Shown here piece by piece: positions 12,181 to 62,926 of a DNA stretch of 64,000 nucleotides. Numbering within the stretch: position 1 is the stretch's first letter; each line of letters opens with the position of its first letter. Below the pieces are notes generated by a model. The model searched no databases. It was not told the DNA's origin and saw only the letters and a program-made list of their open reading frames with translations. Source of the stretch: Eledone cirrhosa. Its lineage: Eukaryota. Location of the stretch: NCBI GenBank assembly GCA_964016885.1, contig CAXHJY010001675.1, positions 19,157 to 83,156 on the forward strand. The letters are read 5' to 3'. Position numbers and translations under genes: made by a program.

Positions 12181-12534
12181 CCATACGGAGAAATGGAGAG
12201 GGCCAGAGAGATGGAGGCAATGACAGTGGGAGGTCGGCTGTTCTTTCATGTTTGCTTAGGTTACAATTACATTGTGATAGAAGCTGTGATAACCCTCTAA
12301 TGGCAATATTACATAGAATGTGGTTGTGACATCAAGCAGCTGAATCAGACGATATGTTGCAGTTACTTAGCGCAAATTTTTTTCTGCCTTTGTATCACTA
12401 TTTTTCTCTAAATATAGATTTTAAAGAATCCCCTTCTTTAAATCCATCAACCAATTACCCCAACCCATCCCAATCACCACCCTCTCCTACCACCAGAAAA
12501 TGTATAAATACCACCATATTACATTGACAGTCGT

Positions 12535-12581
12535 CTTCCTGGTGATTTCTCCCCAATGAAACAGTTCTAGTCTTGTAGAAG
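12535..12581 (+). ncRNA. Type-I hammerhead-like motif, family B (degenerate core CUGGUGA)
   Basis: CTTC-CTGGTGA-(damaged stem II)-GAA-ACAG/TTGT-A-GAAG. TATAAATA lies about 30 nt upstream. Downstream 80 nt are shared with 46953-47074. Confidence 0.55.
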
Positions 12582-12683
12582 CCATTTCTATAGTAAGTAC
12601 TTATACTCTACTATGTATTGAGTACCTTACTTACTGTGGTTACCCCCGATTGAACCTGGGATAAACACACACACACACATATA

Positions 12684-22630: not shown

Positions 22631-22668
22631 ATTTTCTGATGATAGGTTAGCACCTGAAACGTTAAGAT
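22631..22668 (+). ncRNA. Minimal type-I hammerhead-like motif, family C
   Basis: ATTTT-CTGATGA-T-AGGT(TAGC)ACCT-GAAACGTT-AAGAT: intact core, stem I ATTTT/AAGAT, palindromic AACGTT in place of stem III. Confidence 0.65.
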
Positions 22669-22764
22669 TGTTTTCCTATTCTATCAAGTGTAAAACTAAT
22701 AATATATTTCTTCATTGTACTGTGTCGTTTGTTTTGTTATTTCTGTTTGTCTTTTGTATATATT

Positions 22765-23447: not shown

Positions 23448-23495
23448 TGTTTAAGTAAAGAATTGCTGCTTTCACCCTTATTGAGGCCTCTTCGG
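23448..23495 (-). ncRNA. Type-I hammerhead-like motif, family A (partial, CCGAAGA core)
   Basis: Minus strand CCGAAGA-GGCCTCAATAAGGGT-GAA-AGCAG..TTACT-T-AAAC. Homologous to 47099-47174; the stem I 5' strand is missing. Confidence 0.5.
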
Positions 23496-23528
23496 ATTTT
23501 AGTCTTCACATTTATTACTATATATATA

Positions 23529-42944: not shown

Positions 42945-43541
42945 GTGCTGGTGCTACTGGTAACATGTATCCCAGTACAACCTGTCTCATGGTCGGGTCG
43001 TTGGCGACTAAACTGGCAACCCCACCAAGGTTTCTTGGTGAGGAGGGTGACTTTGGACATCCTGCAGGACTAAAAACAAAACCTGTCAAACGGCAAAGGA
43101 GTTCTTAAGAGTCAATGGCCATCCAAAATCACCGGGAGAGATGACCCCTTAGCCTTTGTCAAGGCAGAATTCTAGAAGGAAAACTCTGATATAACACCTG
43201 CAACCCTGATGGTATCCAATGATGTTGACTTATTCTTCCCTTTGGTAAATATCATCTTGGTTAAGAGAGTGGGACTGGCTTTGTGCAGTGCCTTTGCTCA
43301 CTATAAAAGCTTCACGGCACAGGCATTGCTTTATATCTGGAGATCTCTCTGCACTTGTCGTCACATGGTACCAAGGGCCCAGCACTATGTGTCAATGATT
43401 GTCACAAGTGTAGTGTTTGTACCAGAGTTTTCAAGTCGCTGGCTGGACTAAAAAGTCACACTCGTTCAGCGCATCGATAGGGGTTCTCCTACATGGATAT
43501 AAAGTAGTGGCCGTACTCGAAAACGAGTTGGCAGCCACCAT
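42945..43541 (+). mobile_element. Internally deleted, non-autonomous derivative of the zinc-finger RTE
   Basis: 43125-43328 is homologous to the 5' UTR at 49240-49468. 43405-43480 encodes [25 protein letters not shown] (TATG)n array follows. Confidence 0.7.
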
Positions 43542-43642
43542 ATGTGTATGTATATATATATGTATGTATGTATGTATATATGTATGTATGTATATATATA
43601 TATGTATGTATATATATATATGTATGTATGTATATATGTATG

Positions 43643-43697
<55 letters not shown>

Positions 43698-43766
43698 GTA
43701 TATATATATATATATATATATATGTATCTATGTATGTATGTATATATATGTATATATATGTATGTA
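43541..43766. repeat. (TATG)n/(TA)n microsatellite
   Basis: Direct reading. Confidence 0.97.
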
Positions 43767-44775
43767 TCATCATCATCATCATCATCAACGTTTAACGTCC
43801 GTGTTCCACGCTTGCATGGGTTTGGACGGGGGTATTCCCACTTGAGGCAAGAGTGATTGTCTTGCTCGCATAGGACTGTCTGGCAGGTTTTCTACAGTTG
43901 GATGCCCTTCCTAACACCAACCACATTTACAGTGTGGGACTGGGAGGTTTTTACCGTGTTGCCTACACGGCCACATTACAGCGTGGACTGTGTGTTTTTG
44001 TCATGACACCTACACGATCTCATTTGTTTCGGCCTGGATGTTGTGGCACCAACATAACTTTACATAGGAGGGGGTGGTGTGGGTGGTGGGACGGGGGTGT
44101 ATTTTGTTAGAGATGCCTACTGGCTGTAGTAGGTTTTACTATGTATTTAGGTAAGGCGGGTCTTCTCTATTACTGAGTACCGCCAAAGGTCTCGGTCCAG
44201 TGACATTGTCTTGGAGAGGTGTAAGTGTGTGAAGTCGGAGTTTATCAGCTCGTCCCAGGATTTTCTAGGTCTGCCTATTCCGTGGCTACCGTCTATCTTT
44301 ATTGCCCTGCACTTTGTTATACAGCTATCGACTTTCATGCGCATCACGTGTCCGTACCAACGTAGCCTTCTCTCGAGTAAACAACATCTGATCCCTCTTA
44401 TTTCTAATTTTTTCCTTAGTTCGTTTATGCTTTGCCGTTCACGTATATTACTATTACACGTCCAGCGGAGCATGCAAGCTTCGTTCCTCTCTAGTCTGCG
44501 TATATCCTCTGCGCACAATGCCCAGGTCTCACTGCCATGCAACATTGCTGTTCATATGCAGGCATCATACAACCTGCCTTTCATTTTTAGGGAGAACCCT
44601 CTAGCGGCTAATAGTGGTATAAGCTCTCTGAACTTTTTCCACCCAGTTCTGACTCTAGCTACTGTACTTTCGGAGCACCCTCCCCCACTGCTGATTTTGT
44701 CACCCAGGTAACGGAAGCTGTCCACTATTTCTATAGAGCCCTCTGCGCAATTGAAAGAGTTAGTATTTTGTGGGC
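43767..44775 (-). mobile_element. RTE LINE 3' portion
   Basis: [36 protein letters not shown], 3' UTR, (GAT)n tail. Confidence 0.9.
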
Positions 44776-44777
44776 AT

Positions 44778-44778
44778 G

Positions 44779-44809
<31 letters not shown>

Positions 44810-45010
44810 GTATATATATGTATGTATATATATATATATATATGTATGTATATATATATATGTATATATATGTATGTATATATATATATATATATGTATG
44901 TATATATATATATGTATATATATGTATGTATATATATATATATATATATGTATGTATATATATGTATATATATGTATGTATATATATATATATATGTATA
45001 TATATGTATG

Positions 45011-45041
<31 letters not shown>

Positions 45042-45046
45042 GTATG

Positions 45047-45077
<31 letters not shown>

Positions 45078-45200
45078 GTATGTATATATATATATGTATG
45101 TATATATATATATATATGTATATATATATGTATGTATATATATATATATGTATATATATATGTATGTATATATATATATATGTATATATATGTATGTATG

Positions 45201-45235
<35 letters not shown>

Positions 45236-45306
45236 GTATGTATATATATATATATGTATATATATGTATGTATGTATATATATATATATGTATATATATA
45301 TGTATG

Positions 45307-45337
<31 letters not shown>

Positions 45338-45342
45338 GTATG

Positions 45343-45377
<35 letters not shown>

Positions 45378-45821
45378 GTATATATATATGTATGTATATA
45401 TATATATATATGTATATGTATGTATGTATATATATATGTATATGTATGTATGTATGTATATATATATATATGTATATGTATGTATGTATATATGTATATA
45501 TATGTATGTATGTATATATGTATATATATGTATGTATGTATATATGTATATATATGTATGTATGTATATATGTATATATATGTATGTATGTATATATGTA
45601 TATATATGTATGTATGTATATATGTATATATATGTATGTATGTATATATGTATATATATGTATGTATGTATATATGTATATATATGTATATATGTATGTA
45701 TGTATATATGTATATATATGTATGTATGTATATATATATATATATATGTATATATATGTATGTATGTATATATATGTATGTATGTATATATATATATATA
45801 TCATTATTCGATGTTCAAAGT
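44778..45821. repeat. About 1-kb (TA)n/(TATG)n array
   Basis: Direct reading. Confidence 0.98.
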
Positions 45822-46880: not shown

Positions 46881-46955
<75 letters not shown>

Positions 46956-47033
46956 CGGGTTGAATCGGAGGTAACCACAGTAAGTAAGGTACTCAATACA
47001 TTGCAGAGTATAAAAGTTTTAATATAGATGAGA

Positions 47034-47074
47034 TTCTACAGGACTAGAACTGTTTCATTCTTTAGAAATCATCA
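47034..47074 (-). ncRNA. Type-I hammerhead-like motif, family B (5'-truncated at C3)
   Basis: Minus strand TGATGA-T-TTC(TAAA)GAA-T-GAA-ACAG(TTCTAGTC)CTGT-A-GAA, with a GUA cleavage triplet. Confidence 0.6.
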
Positions 47075-47098
47075 TATATATATATATTTATTAAAATA

Positions 47099-47174
47099 AC
47101 AGATTAAAGTTTAAGCAAAGAATCGCTGCTTTCACCCTTAACGGGATCTTCTGAAACTAACAAAGTCAATCTGT
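47099..47174 (-). ncRNA. Type-I hammerhead-like motif, family A, with extended bulged stem I
   Basis: Minus strand ACAGATTGA-CTTTGTT-AGTTT-CAGAAGA-T-CCC(GTTAA)GGG-T-GAA-AGCAG(CGATTCT)TTGCT-T-AAACT-TTAATCTGT. Confidence 0.65.
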
Positions 47175-48467
47175 AAACGCAGAAGTGGATATTTCAAAAA
47201 ACGTTGCAACCGGAGGAAGACAGGAAGACGATACTTTGGTTCGTGGTAACGTTCCCTGGCGAAGAACGGGAAAAAACGAATAATACGTCATTAATAGGAG
47301 CGGTGAAAAACAATTACGCGCAAAGACAAAACCACGTTTATGGTATAAAAGAGGTCGTAGACTAATGTTCTCTTAGGTGGTGCATAGAGACGTTCTCTGG
47401 CAATGAACGAAAAAACGAAGATAATAAGTCGTATGTGGACCGTGGAGAACAATAGCACGCAAAGACAAAACCACGTAAATGGTATAGCAGAAGTCGTAGA
47501 CTAAAATTCTAACTAGGAGACCAAATAAATCTCCGCTTCAGAGTTAAGAACAAAGTAAATAAATACAATACAGAAGTAATAGAAACAAATAAATACATAC
47601 ACGCAAGCAGATACGTACATACACAAGCATACGCCAAACCTTACCATGGGTATACAAAACCACGCACATATAAATATGTGTGTGTGTGTATGCATGTGTA
47701 CAAATAAATAAATAATTATATAAACGTATATAAGTAAATAAATACGTATATAACAAGCGCACACGCATACCTACATATAAATACACGAATGTTATGTGTG
47801 TGTGTGTGTGTGTATATATGTGTGTGTGTGTGTTTGTGCATATATACATATATTTATGTTTATAGTGCACATATACATGTATATGTGTGTGTGTGTGGAA
47901 GATATTTGATATGGCCACTCTATTACCAGGGCAACTTAATTCCTCACAGTATACTTCTGAATGGTACTTATTACGATTAATAGGGACTGATGATTTTATC
48001 TGATTTATGGCAGTAAATGTACAAATGTGTGAGTGTATATGTAAGAGGTTTTATTTATATAGTATCTGTTTATCTATTCCTTATTATTTTACCCCCACCC
48101 CCACCTCTCTTGCACCCTCTACCCCAACCCACCCCCTACGGTAGTCTAGATATCTCCATGTCCTTTAACCTGTATATTTCTATCTTTTCAATAAAGTTTC
48201 CTGTATGTATATTATACATGTATGTATGTATGTATGTATGTATGTATGTATGTATGTATGTATGTATGTATGTATATATAACAACAGCGGCATCAAAACA
48301 TAAAAAAAAAAAGAAAAGAAAAGGGGAAGGGAAAAAAAACCCCAAAAAACTCAAAATAACAAAACACACACACACAACACAACAACATCAACTGCCACCA
48401 CCACCACCGCCGCTGCCGCCATCACCATCACCAGCGACCGGGCCTTAAGAAAACAACTTTAATAATA

Positions 48468-56762: not shown

Positions 56763-56900
56763 AACTGATCAAGCCAGATCAGTTCCTGTATGAGCAAGGC
56801 ATGGTCAGCCGACCAGACACTGCCCACAACAGGACAACCCGTCTAACCCATGCTAGCGTGGAAGAACGGACGTAAAACGGTGATGATGATGATGATGATG
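56760..56900 (+). mobile_element. RTE 3' terminal fragment
   Basis: CCGTCTAACCCATGCTAGCGTGGAAGAACGGACGTAAAAC followed by (GAT)n. Confidence 0.75.
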
Positions 56901-61086
<4,186 letters not shown>

Positions 61087-61088
<2 letters not shown>

Positions 61089-62262
61089 CTCTTTTACTCT
61101 TTTACCTGTTTCAGCCATCCGGCTGAGGCCATGCTGGGGCACTGCCCTTGTTGCTACACATTTTATCTCCAGCCTGTATAGGTTGGCCACTGGTGTAAGA
61201 GGGAGTTTGTTGCTGCTGCCCTTAGGTTTCCCTCGTGTCTTGCTGTGGGCTCATCCGGGATCCTGGATAACAAGGTGTCGAGATGTTTCTTAAAGACATC
61301 CACCTCCACGTCATGCAAGTCTTTCAGATGCCTCGGCAGCCTGTTGAAGAGTTGAGGGCCCTTGAATCCCAGGCTATTGCAATACCTGCTCCTTATTCTA
61401 GATGTGGAAGACGGGACCTTTGGCACCACACAGTGACGTCCTGTTCGACGGTTGGTCCAGCTCCCAATGCCAAAGTTTGGTGCTAGTCCCTCCAGGATTT
61501 TCCACATGTAGATCACTGCGTATCTCTCCCGTCTTCGCTCCAAGGAGTAGAGGTTCAGTTCCTTCAGCCTCTCCCAGTAGCTTGTCTCCCTCATCTTGGC
61601 AATCCTCTTGGTGTAGCTTCGCTGGATTGCCTCAAGCTCTGTGGTTAGTTTCACACTATGGGGTGACCACAGCTGGGAGCAGTAGTCCAGGCGGCTTAGG
61701 ACAAAAGTCCTCCACAGTGTCAACATGGTGTCTCGATCTCTTGTAAGGAAAGTCCTCAAGATCCAGCCAGCGAATCGTCTACATGCTGTCGCCACCTTCA
61801 TGATGTGTGAAGAAAAAGATGCATCATCGCTCATGTCTATGCCCAGGTCTCGTATCGATTTTGACACGGGGATATCGGTCCCTCCTGGTCCTGTGTAGCT
61901 GTGTTCCGCTATATTTGTGTTTGTGTTTGCAGGTTTGTATTGTAGGGCTTGGAATTTGCCAGCATTAAACTGCATGTTGTTTTCTTCCGCCCATCTGTAT
62001 ATGGCATCCAGATCCTGCTGTAAGAGGGCAGCGTCAGCCGGGTTTTTGATTGCCTGTGCTACCTTAGTGTCATCAGCATAGCTAGTGAGGGATGTTGTTG
62101 CATGCACCACAGAGGGCATGTCCGAGAGAGCCACCAAAAACAGTAGTGGTCCCAGGACTGTCCCCTGAGGCACCCCACTTGTTATCGGTGTTTCCCTCGA
62201 GAGGGCCCCATTTGCTGCGACTGCCTGGCTTCTGTCCCTCAGGAAGCCATGCAGCCACTCAC
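61087..62262 (-). mobile_element. CR1/L2-group LINE, 5'-truncated, intact RT 3' half
   Basis: [50 protein letters not shown]; tail of (GAGTAAAA) units. Confidence 0.9.
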
Positions 62263-62263
62263 C

Positions 62264-62365
62264 TATATGTATGTATATATATATATATATGTATGTATAT
62301 ATATGTATATATATATGTATGTATATATATATATGTATGTATATATATATATATATATATGTATG

Positions 62366-62396
<31 letters not shown>

Positions 62397-62445
62397 GTAT
62401 GTATATATATATATATGTATGTATATATATATATATGTATGTATG

Positions 62446-62484
<39 letters not shown>

Positions 62485-62595
62485 ATATATATGTATGTAT
62501 GTTTATATATATGTATATATGTATGTTTATATATATGTATGTATGTATGTATGTTTATATATATGTATGTATGTATGTATATATATATATGTATA

Positions 62596-62641
<46 letters not shown>

Positions 62642-62690
62642 GTATGTATATATATATATATATATGTATGTATATATATATATATATATG

Positions 62691-62728
<38 letters not shown>

Positions 62729-62737
62729 GTATGTATG

Positions 62738-62768
<31 letters not shown>

Positions 62769-62789
62769 ATATATATATATGTATGTATG

Positions 62790-62884
<95 letters not shown>

Positions 62885-62926
62885 GTATGTATATATATAT
62901 ATATATATGTATGTATATATATATAT
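62264..62926. repeat. (TA)n/(TATG)n array
   Basis: Direct reading. Confidence 0.98.

What the first reader, a model, noticed from the sequence alone, without database searches (positions are those of the whole stretch)
47099..47174. Full type-I hammerhead ribozyme fold with a variant core (family A)
Seen: on the minus strand all three helices pair. Stem I is AGUUU/AAACU, extended past a 7-nt bulge by a 9-bp helix (ACAGAUUGA/UUAAUCUGU). Stem II is CCC/GGG and stem III is AGCAG/UUGCU, around CAGAAGA...GAAA...CUU. An AAUAAA follows within about 10 nt, and a second copy lies at 23448-23495 with a CCGAAGA core. Known: a bulged stem I contacting loop II is the architecture of natural type-I hammerheads, which in animals occur in Penelope-like element repeats and retrozymes. 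Inference: this is a dispersed self-cleaving RNA family. Neither copy has the canonical U4, and this copy closes stem II with U-U, so it may be a variant core or decayed copies.
Basis: partly seen in the sequence, partly recalled or inferred. Interest (0 to 1): 0.8.

Follow-up and report, generated by a model that had tools for sequence, protein, structure and literature searches.

The report
Penelope retrotransposon hammerhead with A4 core
This is the hammerhead-shaped RNA motif at the end of a very abundant Penelope-type jumping gene; the whole family carries an A where hammerheads normally have a U, which likely slows self-cutting, and the motif likely sits at the very start of the element's capped RNA.

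Summary
The fold at 47174-47099 (-) is as described. It is the terminal-repeat (pLTR) hammerhead of a Hydra-clade Penelope-like retrotransposon: 18,837 exact core matches in this genome, and full-length copies encode an RT plus GIY-YIG protein. The U-U closure of stem II is normal for the clade (14 of 25 published families). A4 is not decay: 100 of 100 listed copies have it, non-A copies number 155 with no U excess, and older subfamilies keep A4, core and stems while loops changed. Short copies start at the first base of stem I, often with an extra G; a sister family has a TATA box 30 nt upstream of the same base. So the motif likely opens the capped transcript. No copy starts at the cut site, but none does in the canonical-core sister family either. 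Cutting is untested; no RNA run was available. I found no natural U4A core in print. An earlier scan note reports a similar family-wide core change in another genome (unchecked).

The parts
47084..47793 (-). 5'-truncated copy of the Hydra-clade Penelope-like element (family A): 3' UTR, hammerhead and short tail; no coding sequence
   Evidence: 95-98% identity over 710-722 nt to other genomic copies; maps to the last 708 nt of full-length L083; tblastn of the family ORF finds nothing in the window
47099..47174 (-). Type-I hammerhead fold with A4, U10.1-U11.1, 5-bp stem III with 7-nt loop, bulged stem I
   Evidence: sequence
47147..47153 (-). Core strand C3-A9 with A at position 4 (47152)
   Evidence: 100 of 100 listed genomic matches have A4; 155 non-A copies
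47154..47160 (-). Initiator-like heptamer; predicted transcription start at 47158, the first base of lower stem I
   Evidence: modal 5' junction, with extra G; initiator consensus recalled, not tested
47112..47113 (-). Predicted cleavage site after U17 (CUU triplet)
   Evidence: position in the fold; 0 of 55 sampled copies start here
47087..47092 (-). AAUAAA at the common 3' junction with the (TA)n target
   Evidence: loose-end hot spot at the matching place
47249..47510 (-). Two diverged repeats, 139 nt apart, in the element's 3' UTR
   Evidence: 78% identity over 125 nt
46942..47074 (-). Adjacent truncated copy of a second Hydra-type family (B) with canonical U4; begins at U4, so it lacks C3 and the 5' strand of stem I
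   Evidence: 96-98% identity to L132/L136
23424..23480 (-). 3' half of a family-A hammerhead (loop II to tail), 5'-truncated
23476..23528 (+). Inverted piece of the family-A tail (5' UTR); source of the false CCGAAGA 'core'

Best explanation
This is the pLTR hammerhead of a high-copy Hydra-clade Penelope-like retrotransposon whose lineage has fixed A at core position 4; it is likely a slow, attenuated ribozyme that the element keeps as a folded RNA structure but likely does not need to cut in order to be copied. Shown: layout pLTR-hammerhead-5' UTR-ORF-3' UTR-hammerhead with a 3,259-nt unit; insertion in (TA)n with inverted, 5'-truncated partners; A4 in old and young subfamilies; copies that run intact across the cut site. 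Inferred: transcription starts at the first base of lower stem I and the RNA is capped there; reverse transcription primes at TA-rich sites 3' of the ribozyme and either stops at the cap (short copies with an extra G) or continues into 3' UTR on longer templates; the cap-proximal hammerhead lacks upper stem I, which only the downstream copy can form; A4 removes the U-turn uridine and is predicted to add a pair with U11.1 that favours an inactive hairpin, so cutting would be rare and the cap mostly kept.
For: Family and layout. Clade motifs RWR, DKT, CxCx5C, CxxC, CxH and (TA)n targeting match PMC8557442 section 11. A4 fixed. Fold kept: old (6 copies) versus young (96 copies) majority sequences differ at 9 of about 21 bulge/loop columns and 0 of 57 stem/core columns (Fisher p about 1e-6). 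Uncut template: 0 of 55 copies start within 3 nt of the cut; PMC11167929 shows hammerhead mutants do not affect insertion in vitro and uncut RNA is the main substrate. Start site: 18 of 55 junctions lie 38-50 nt upstream of the cut, mode at 46; G precedes 4 of 6 junctions there and 2 of 27 elsewhere; 20 of 28 in a targeted sample; 53 of the first 100 of 2,606; extra G marks the cap in L1 insertions (PMC11702581); family B has TATAAATA 30 nt upstream of its stem-I start and 10 of 30 copies begin there. Attenuation: changes in CUGA gave low activity (PMC9901934); natural U4C is much slower yet viable (PMC3088659); alternative helix probability 0.2-0.4 with A4 against 0.02 or less in a natural U4 copy.
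Against: No cleavage or RNA data. The junction test does not measure activity: canonical family B also has 0 of 30 copies at its cut site. The old-versus-young comparison is biased, since 4 of the 6 old copies were picked by a core pattern; only L274 and L277 were tail-anchored, and there is no compensatory change inside family A. The hammerhead fold has low predicted probability with U4 as well (0.0011 against 0.0006). Part of the junction peak can come from template switching between the two strands of stem I; in family B this also explains the G, and in 3 of 15 inverted family-A junctions the G is supplied by the inverted arm. I saw no rate for U4A itself.
Confidence: 0.52

Rival explanations
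1. The ribozyme is dead. The fold and sequence are kept for non-catalytic reasons: core promoter around +1 and an RNA structure bound by the element's protein.
For: A4 hits a U present in all 25 published Hydra families; CUGA mutants are weak; A4 favours an off-hairpin; the conserved block overlaps the predicted start site; cleavage is dispensable in vitro.
Against: All other core positions, U17 and both strands of four helices are unchanged between subfamilies while loops drift, more than a promoter alone would need.
Confidence: 0.25
2. A4 is a fully working natural core variant, rescued by tertiary contacts of the bulged stem I or by the element's protein. It cuts both repeats, giving unit RNA that can circularise and template more-than-unit copies.
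For: Long-term conservation; stem III has a 7-nt loop, so a monomer could fold, unlike the 1-3-nt loops; the anole element's hammerhead needs protein to cut; circle model in PMC4209133; another family in this genome shows C4 cores with intact helices.
Against: Extra-G junctions show capped RNA with an uncut 5' hammerhead; linear templates suffice because masters with a 3' tail exist; U4 changes lower activity in the papers read.
Confidence: 0.19
3. Decayed copies of a canonical U4 master.
For: 95 copies with U4 exist.
Against: They are about 0.5% of copies, no commoner than G4 or C4 (35 U, 38 G, 27 C of 100 listed), share no diagnostic flank, and several are inversion junctions.
Confidence: 0.03

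Closest known systems
Hydra clade of Penelope-like elements and their hammerheads (Craig et al. 2021, PMC8557442, section 11 and File S2)
   Same: Single ORF with RT and C-terminal GIY-YIG, RW(K/R), DKT, CxCx5C, CxxC and CxH motifs; (TA)n targets; inverted 5'-truncated partners and tails; type-I hammerhead near the 3' end; U after A9 and U before G12 (14 of 25 families); U17 (10 of 25).
   Different: All 25 listed families have U4; this one has A4. Loop III is 7 nt here, 1-3 nt there. Unit is 3.26 kb against generally under 3 kb. Two short motifs of this family are absent from the supplement (FASTA line breaks could hide them); the listed cephalopod family Hydra-1_Obim has a different hammerhead.
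PAc, Poseidon element of Anolis carolinensis (Frangieh et al. 2024, PMC11167929)
   Same: Hammerhead at the pLTR-ORF junction; two 3' junction sites defining a tail; AT-rich targets; uncut RNA as template.
   Different: Different clade; canonical core; its ORF starts inside the hammerhead, here about 200 nt after +1.
Natural hammerhead core variants (Perreault et al. 2011, PMC3088659)
   Same: U10.1-U11.1 occurs naturally; a viroid U4C variant is slow but viable.
   Different: No U4A in the passages read; those variants are rare, this one is fixed in tens of thousands of copies.
Drosophila virilis Penelope promoter (Schostak et al. 2008, PMC2377424; Cervera and de la Pena 2014, PMC4209133)
   Same: Start site with initiator inside the pLTR, upstream of the ORF.
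   Different: There an intron lies 46 bp after the start and ends at helix I; here +1 itself is inferred to be the first base of helix I, with no intron evident.

Membership tests
Type-I hammerhead ribozyme | Three helices around the core, open at stem I | tested here: met
   same architecture with different helix sequences in family B
Type-I hammerhead ribozyme | Core CUGANGA | tested here: not met
   A4 instead of U4, family-wide; C3, G5, A6, G8, A9 present
Type-I hammerhead ribozyme | GAAA strand, A15.1-U16.1, H17 | tested here: met
   47133-47130, 47114, 47113
Type-I hammerhead ribozyme | G10.1-C11.1 pair | tested here: not met
   U-U; a known natural alternative
Type-I hammerhead ribozyme | Match to Rfam hammerhead models | tested here: not met
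   none among the 150 listed of 155 window hits or the 6 local hits at E up to 10
Type-I hammerhead ribozyme | Covariation in helices | tested here: inconclusive
   stems invariant within family A; two-sided changes only between families A and B, read by eye
Type-I hammerhead ribozyme | Self-cleavage | not testable with these tools
   no RNA holder listed; needs an assay
Hydra-clade Penelope-like element | Single ORF, RT then C-terminal GIY-YIG | tested here: met
   708 aa from ATG in L095 with YRDD and a VY..AYIG nuclease motif; no Pfam hit, so domains are read from motifs
Hydra-clade Penelope-like element | RWK, DKT, CxCx5C, CxxC, CxH motifs | tested here: met
   RWR, DKT, CNCRNRADC, CDLC, CKH
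Hydra-clade Penelope-like element | (TA)n insertion, pLTR, inverted truncated copies, tail | tested here: met
Hydra-clade Penelope-like element | Phylogenetic placement with reference Hydra RTs | not tested
   reference sequences are in the paper's supplement and were not available to the alignment tools
Non-LTR retrozyme | Non-coding 150-400-nt tandem monomers (recalled size range) | tested here: not met
   the motif ends a 3.26-kb coding element

The most novel reading that the evidence does not exclude
A natural, working U4A hammerhead, placed so that transcription begins at its first helix base. The capped 5' copy lacks upper stem I and is held off by an A4-U11.1 hairpin, while the downstream copy, or the protein-bound RNA, cuts. 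This would be a built-in switch between capped mRNA and cut or circular template, shared by Hydra-clade elements.
Probability: 0.2. Interest if true: 0.72.

Novelty: new variant of a known kind. Interest (0 to 1): 0.45.

Why it matters
What hammerheads do in Penelope-like elements is an open question. This genome offers a natural pair: two Hydra-type families (50.6% identical proteins) with the same ribozyme architecture and position, one with canonical U4 and one with A4, both amplified to thousands of copies. If A4 is dead or slow, the more abundant family spread without efficient cutting, which supports in vivo what was seen in vitro for the anole element. If it is active, standard CUGANGA searches miss tens of thousands of ribozymes and the U-turn uridine is replaceable. 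The inferred start site at the first base of stem I means cutting would remove the cap 46 nt in, a testable reason to dampen the ribozyme.

Tried and rejected
Rfam scans gave only microsatellite-driven hits, no hammerhead. DNA search of the own genome found nothing because common words are skipped; patterns were used instead. No RNA holder listed, so expression and RNA ends were not tested. Contigs of four runs of unknown kind showed loose-end hot spots at the tail junctions and none listed at the cut site, but 430 rows were not shown; the two low-depth runs are not treated as independent species evidence. The junction-at-cut test was rejected as a measure of activity because canonical family B behaves alike. 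A 3' splice site at the stem I start was considered: the upstream tract looks like one, but the junction copies show no shared upstream exon, only one G; not excluded without RNA. One search was a mis-designed control (the variable letter fell on the master's G) and serves only as a denominator, 21,915; the control was redone on stored loci. Alignments A1 and A2 had wrong coordinates and were not used. Pfam found no family in the ORF. Homologue search gave 1,201 proteins at E up to 1e-20; the 120 listed are 39-57% identical and nearly all unnamed. Searches for a published U4A core and for cephalopod Penelope hammerheads found none; only 20 of 132 papers were listed. Lunse et al. on Penelope hammerhead variants (PMC5785218) is not held and may list position-4 variants; supplements and figures of PMC3088659, PMC4209133 and PMC9901934 were not seen and may hold U4A data. 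The host looks like a cephalopod mollusc by impression only; not tested.

Full report
Observation. A relaxed hammerhead descriptor finds it once in the window and never in 100 locally shuffled windows. Energy alone would not pick it: the hammerhead fold is 2 kcal/mol above the predicted minimum and the z-score is -0.74, and Rfam reports no hammerhead. The second copy is not a second core. BLAST against fetched loci splits it into a sense piece from loop II onward (23480-23424) and an antisense piece of the element's tail (23528-23476) that happens to read CCGAAGA. Locus L228 shows the same kind of junction.

What it is. The 31-nt core pattern has 18,837 exact matches in the 3.0-Gb genome, and the 24 nt after the cut site 39,443; reversed controls are 0. 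The window copy runs 47793-47084 and is 95-98% identical to others. Of 20 longer regions examined, L083 has the full layout (hammerhead, 5' UTR, ORF, 3' UTR, hammerhead; 3,259 nt between hammerheads) and L095 an open ORF of 708 aa from the ATG. The protein has RWR, DKT, YRDD, CxCx5C, a GIY-YIG-type motif, CxxC and CxH, the diagnostic set of the Hydra clade in PMC8557442 (section 11 read). Copies sit in (TA)n and often carry an inverted truncated partner, as that paper describes (passages). Clade placement rests on motifs; no tree was built.

The variant core. File S2 of PMC8557442 (supplement parts 1-2 read) lists 25 Hydra families. By my count 14 have U after A9 and U before G12, 10 have U17, all 25 have U4, and all have a loop III of 1-3 nt. 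PMC3088659 (passages) also reports natural U10.1-U11.1. So U-U is ordinary and A4 is the real departure. All 100 listed matches have A4. Non-A copies number 155, and of the 100 listed 38 have G, 35 U and 27 C (hand tally), the pattern of mutation after insertion. The 20 U4 loci inspected, of 95, fall in different sequence backgrounds or at inversion junctions. Older subfamilies also have A4: 86 of 100 listed, and all 3 tail-anchored sense copies that retain the core among 30 loci. Majority sequences of 6 old and 96 young copies differ at 9 of about 21 bulge and loop columns and at none of 57 stem and core columns (p about 1e-6). Four of the six old copies were selected on the core, so this is suggestive, not clean, and invariance is not covariation.

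Position in the transcript. Copies anchored downstream of the cut were traced to their 5' junction. None of 30, and none of 55 in a wider set that includes most of them and leaves out copies chosen for their core, starts at the cut. Eighteen of 55 start 38-50 nt upstream, with the mode at 46 nt, the first base of lower stem I. There the preceding base is G in 4 of 6, against 2 of 27 at other junctions. Genome-wide, 2,606 copies have a non-master base at that place; 53 of the first 100 have G (hand tally), and 28 of 30 fetched are true junctions, 20 with G. An extra G marks the cap in full-length L1 insertions (PMC11702581, one passage). The surrounding bases fit an initiator (consensus recalled). 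Family B, a second Hydra-type family with canonical U4 (9,001 core matches; 50.6% protein identity over 451 aa), has a TATA box 30 nt and a CCAAT further upstream of its own stem I start, and 10 of 30 copies begin within 1 nt of that base. I infer that both families start transcription at the first base of stem I. Template switching between stem I strands can add to the peak and explains G in family B, but in family A it would give A.

How it likely works. A capped RNA begins with the hammerhead, followed by about 200 nt to the ATG with no earlier ATG in L095. The upper 9-bp helix needs bases upstream of +1, so only the downstream repeat can form it. Reverse transcription starts at TA-rich sites after the ribozyme, giving the short and the tailed 3' junctions, as shown in vitro for the anole element, whose hammerhead mutants still insert and whose hammerhead cuts only with protein (PMC11167929, parts 1-2 of 4 read). 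A4 should weaken catalysis: CUGA changes gave low activity in a mutational scan (PMC9901934, passages) and natural U4C is slow but viable. A4 also extends a competing helix with the U11.1-GAAA strand, predicted at 0.2-0.4 against 0.02 or less in natural U4 copy L082, which differs only at that base. I therefore favour a slow ribozyme kept under structural constraint (0.52), over a dead one (0.25) or a fully active, assisted one (0.19), the last fitting the circle model of PMC4209133 (parts 1-2 of 4 read). Against over-reading: family B also has 0 of 30 copies at its cut, so genomic junctions say nothing on rate, and the active fold is predicted rare with U4 too.

Novelty. The element class and its hammerheads are known. 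A family-wide U4A core did not appear in searches, and a start site at helix I was not in the passages read from PMC2377424, PMC6765202 or search 64. Passages of PMC6962438, PMC11014351, PMC6155905 and two preprints added nothing. One key paper on Penelope hammerhead variants was not held, and unseen figures and supplements may contain U4A data. Verdict: new variant of a known kind, interest 0.45.

Noticed in passing
window 46942-47074 (-) and 12415-12664 (+): Family B Hydra-type element with canonical CUGAUGA core, U-U closure, 8-nt loop III, TATA box at -30 and CCAAT; 9,001 exact cores. The 12.5-kb copy is diverged (76%) with a changed core.
   Followed up: partly
window 22636-22675 (+): Another candidate hammerhead with CUGAUGA core, U-U closure and 2-bp stem III; family not traced.
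   Followed up: no
L009, L010, L012, L022, L138: A further repeat family with C4 cores (CCGAAGA / CCGAUGA), long stem II and intact helices; position 4 seems to vary between several Penelope-type families in this genome.
   Followed up: no
L051:2733, L044:1861, L041:2332, L032:1269: At least three more hammerhead families with canonical U4, two with U-U closure and very short palindromic stem III.
   Followed up: no
L251-L280; L083:2032: Many inserts consist of the tail only, starting at an internal TA run of the 5' UTR.
   Followed up: no
window 43400-45800 and 56900-62900: Very long (TA)/(TATG) microsatellite arrays, 6% GC at 58-60 kb; they cause all top Rfam hits.
   Followed up: no
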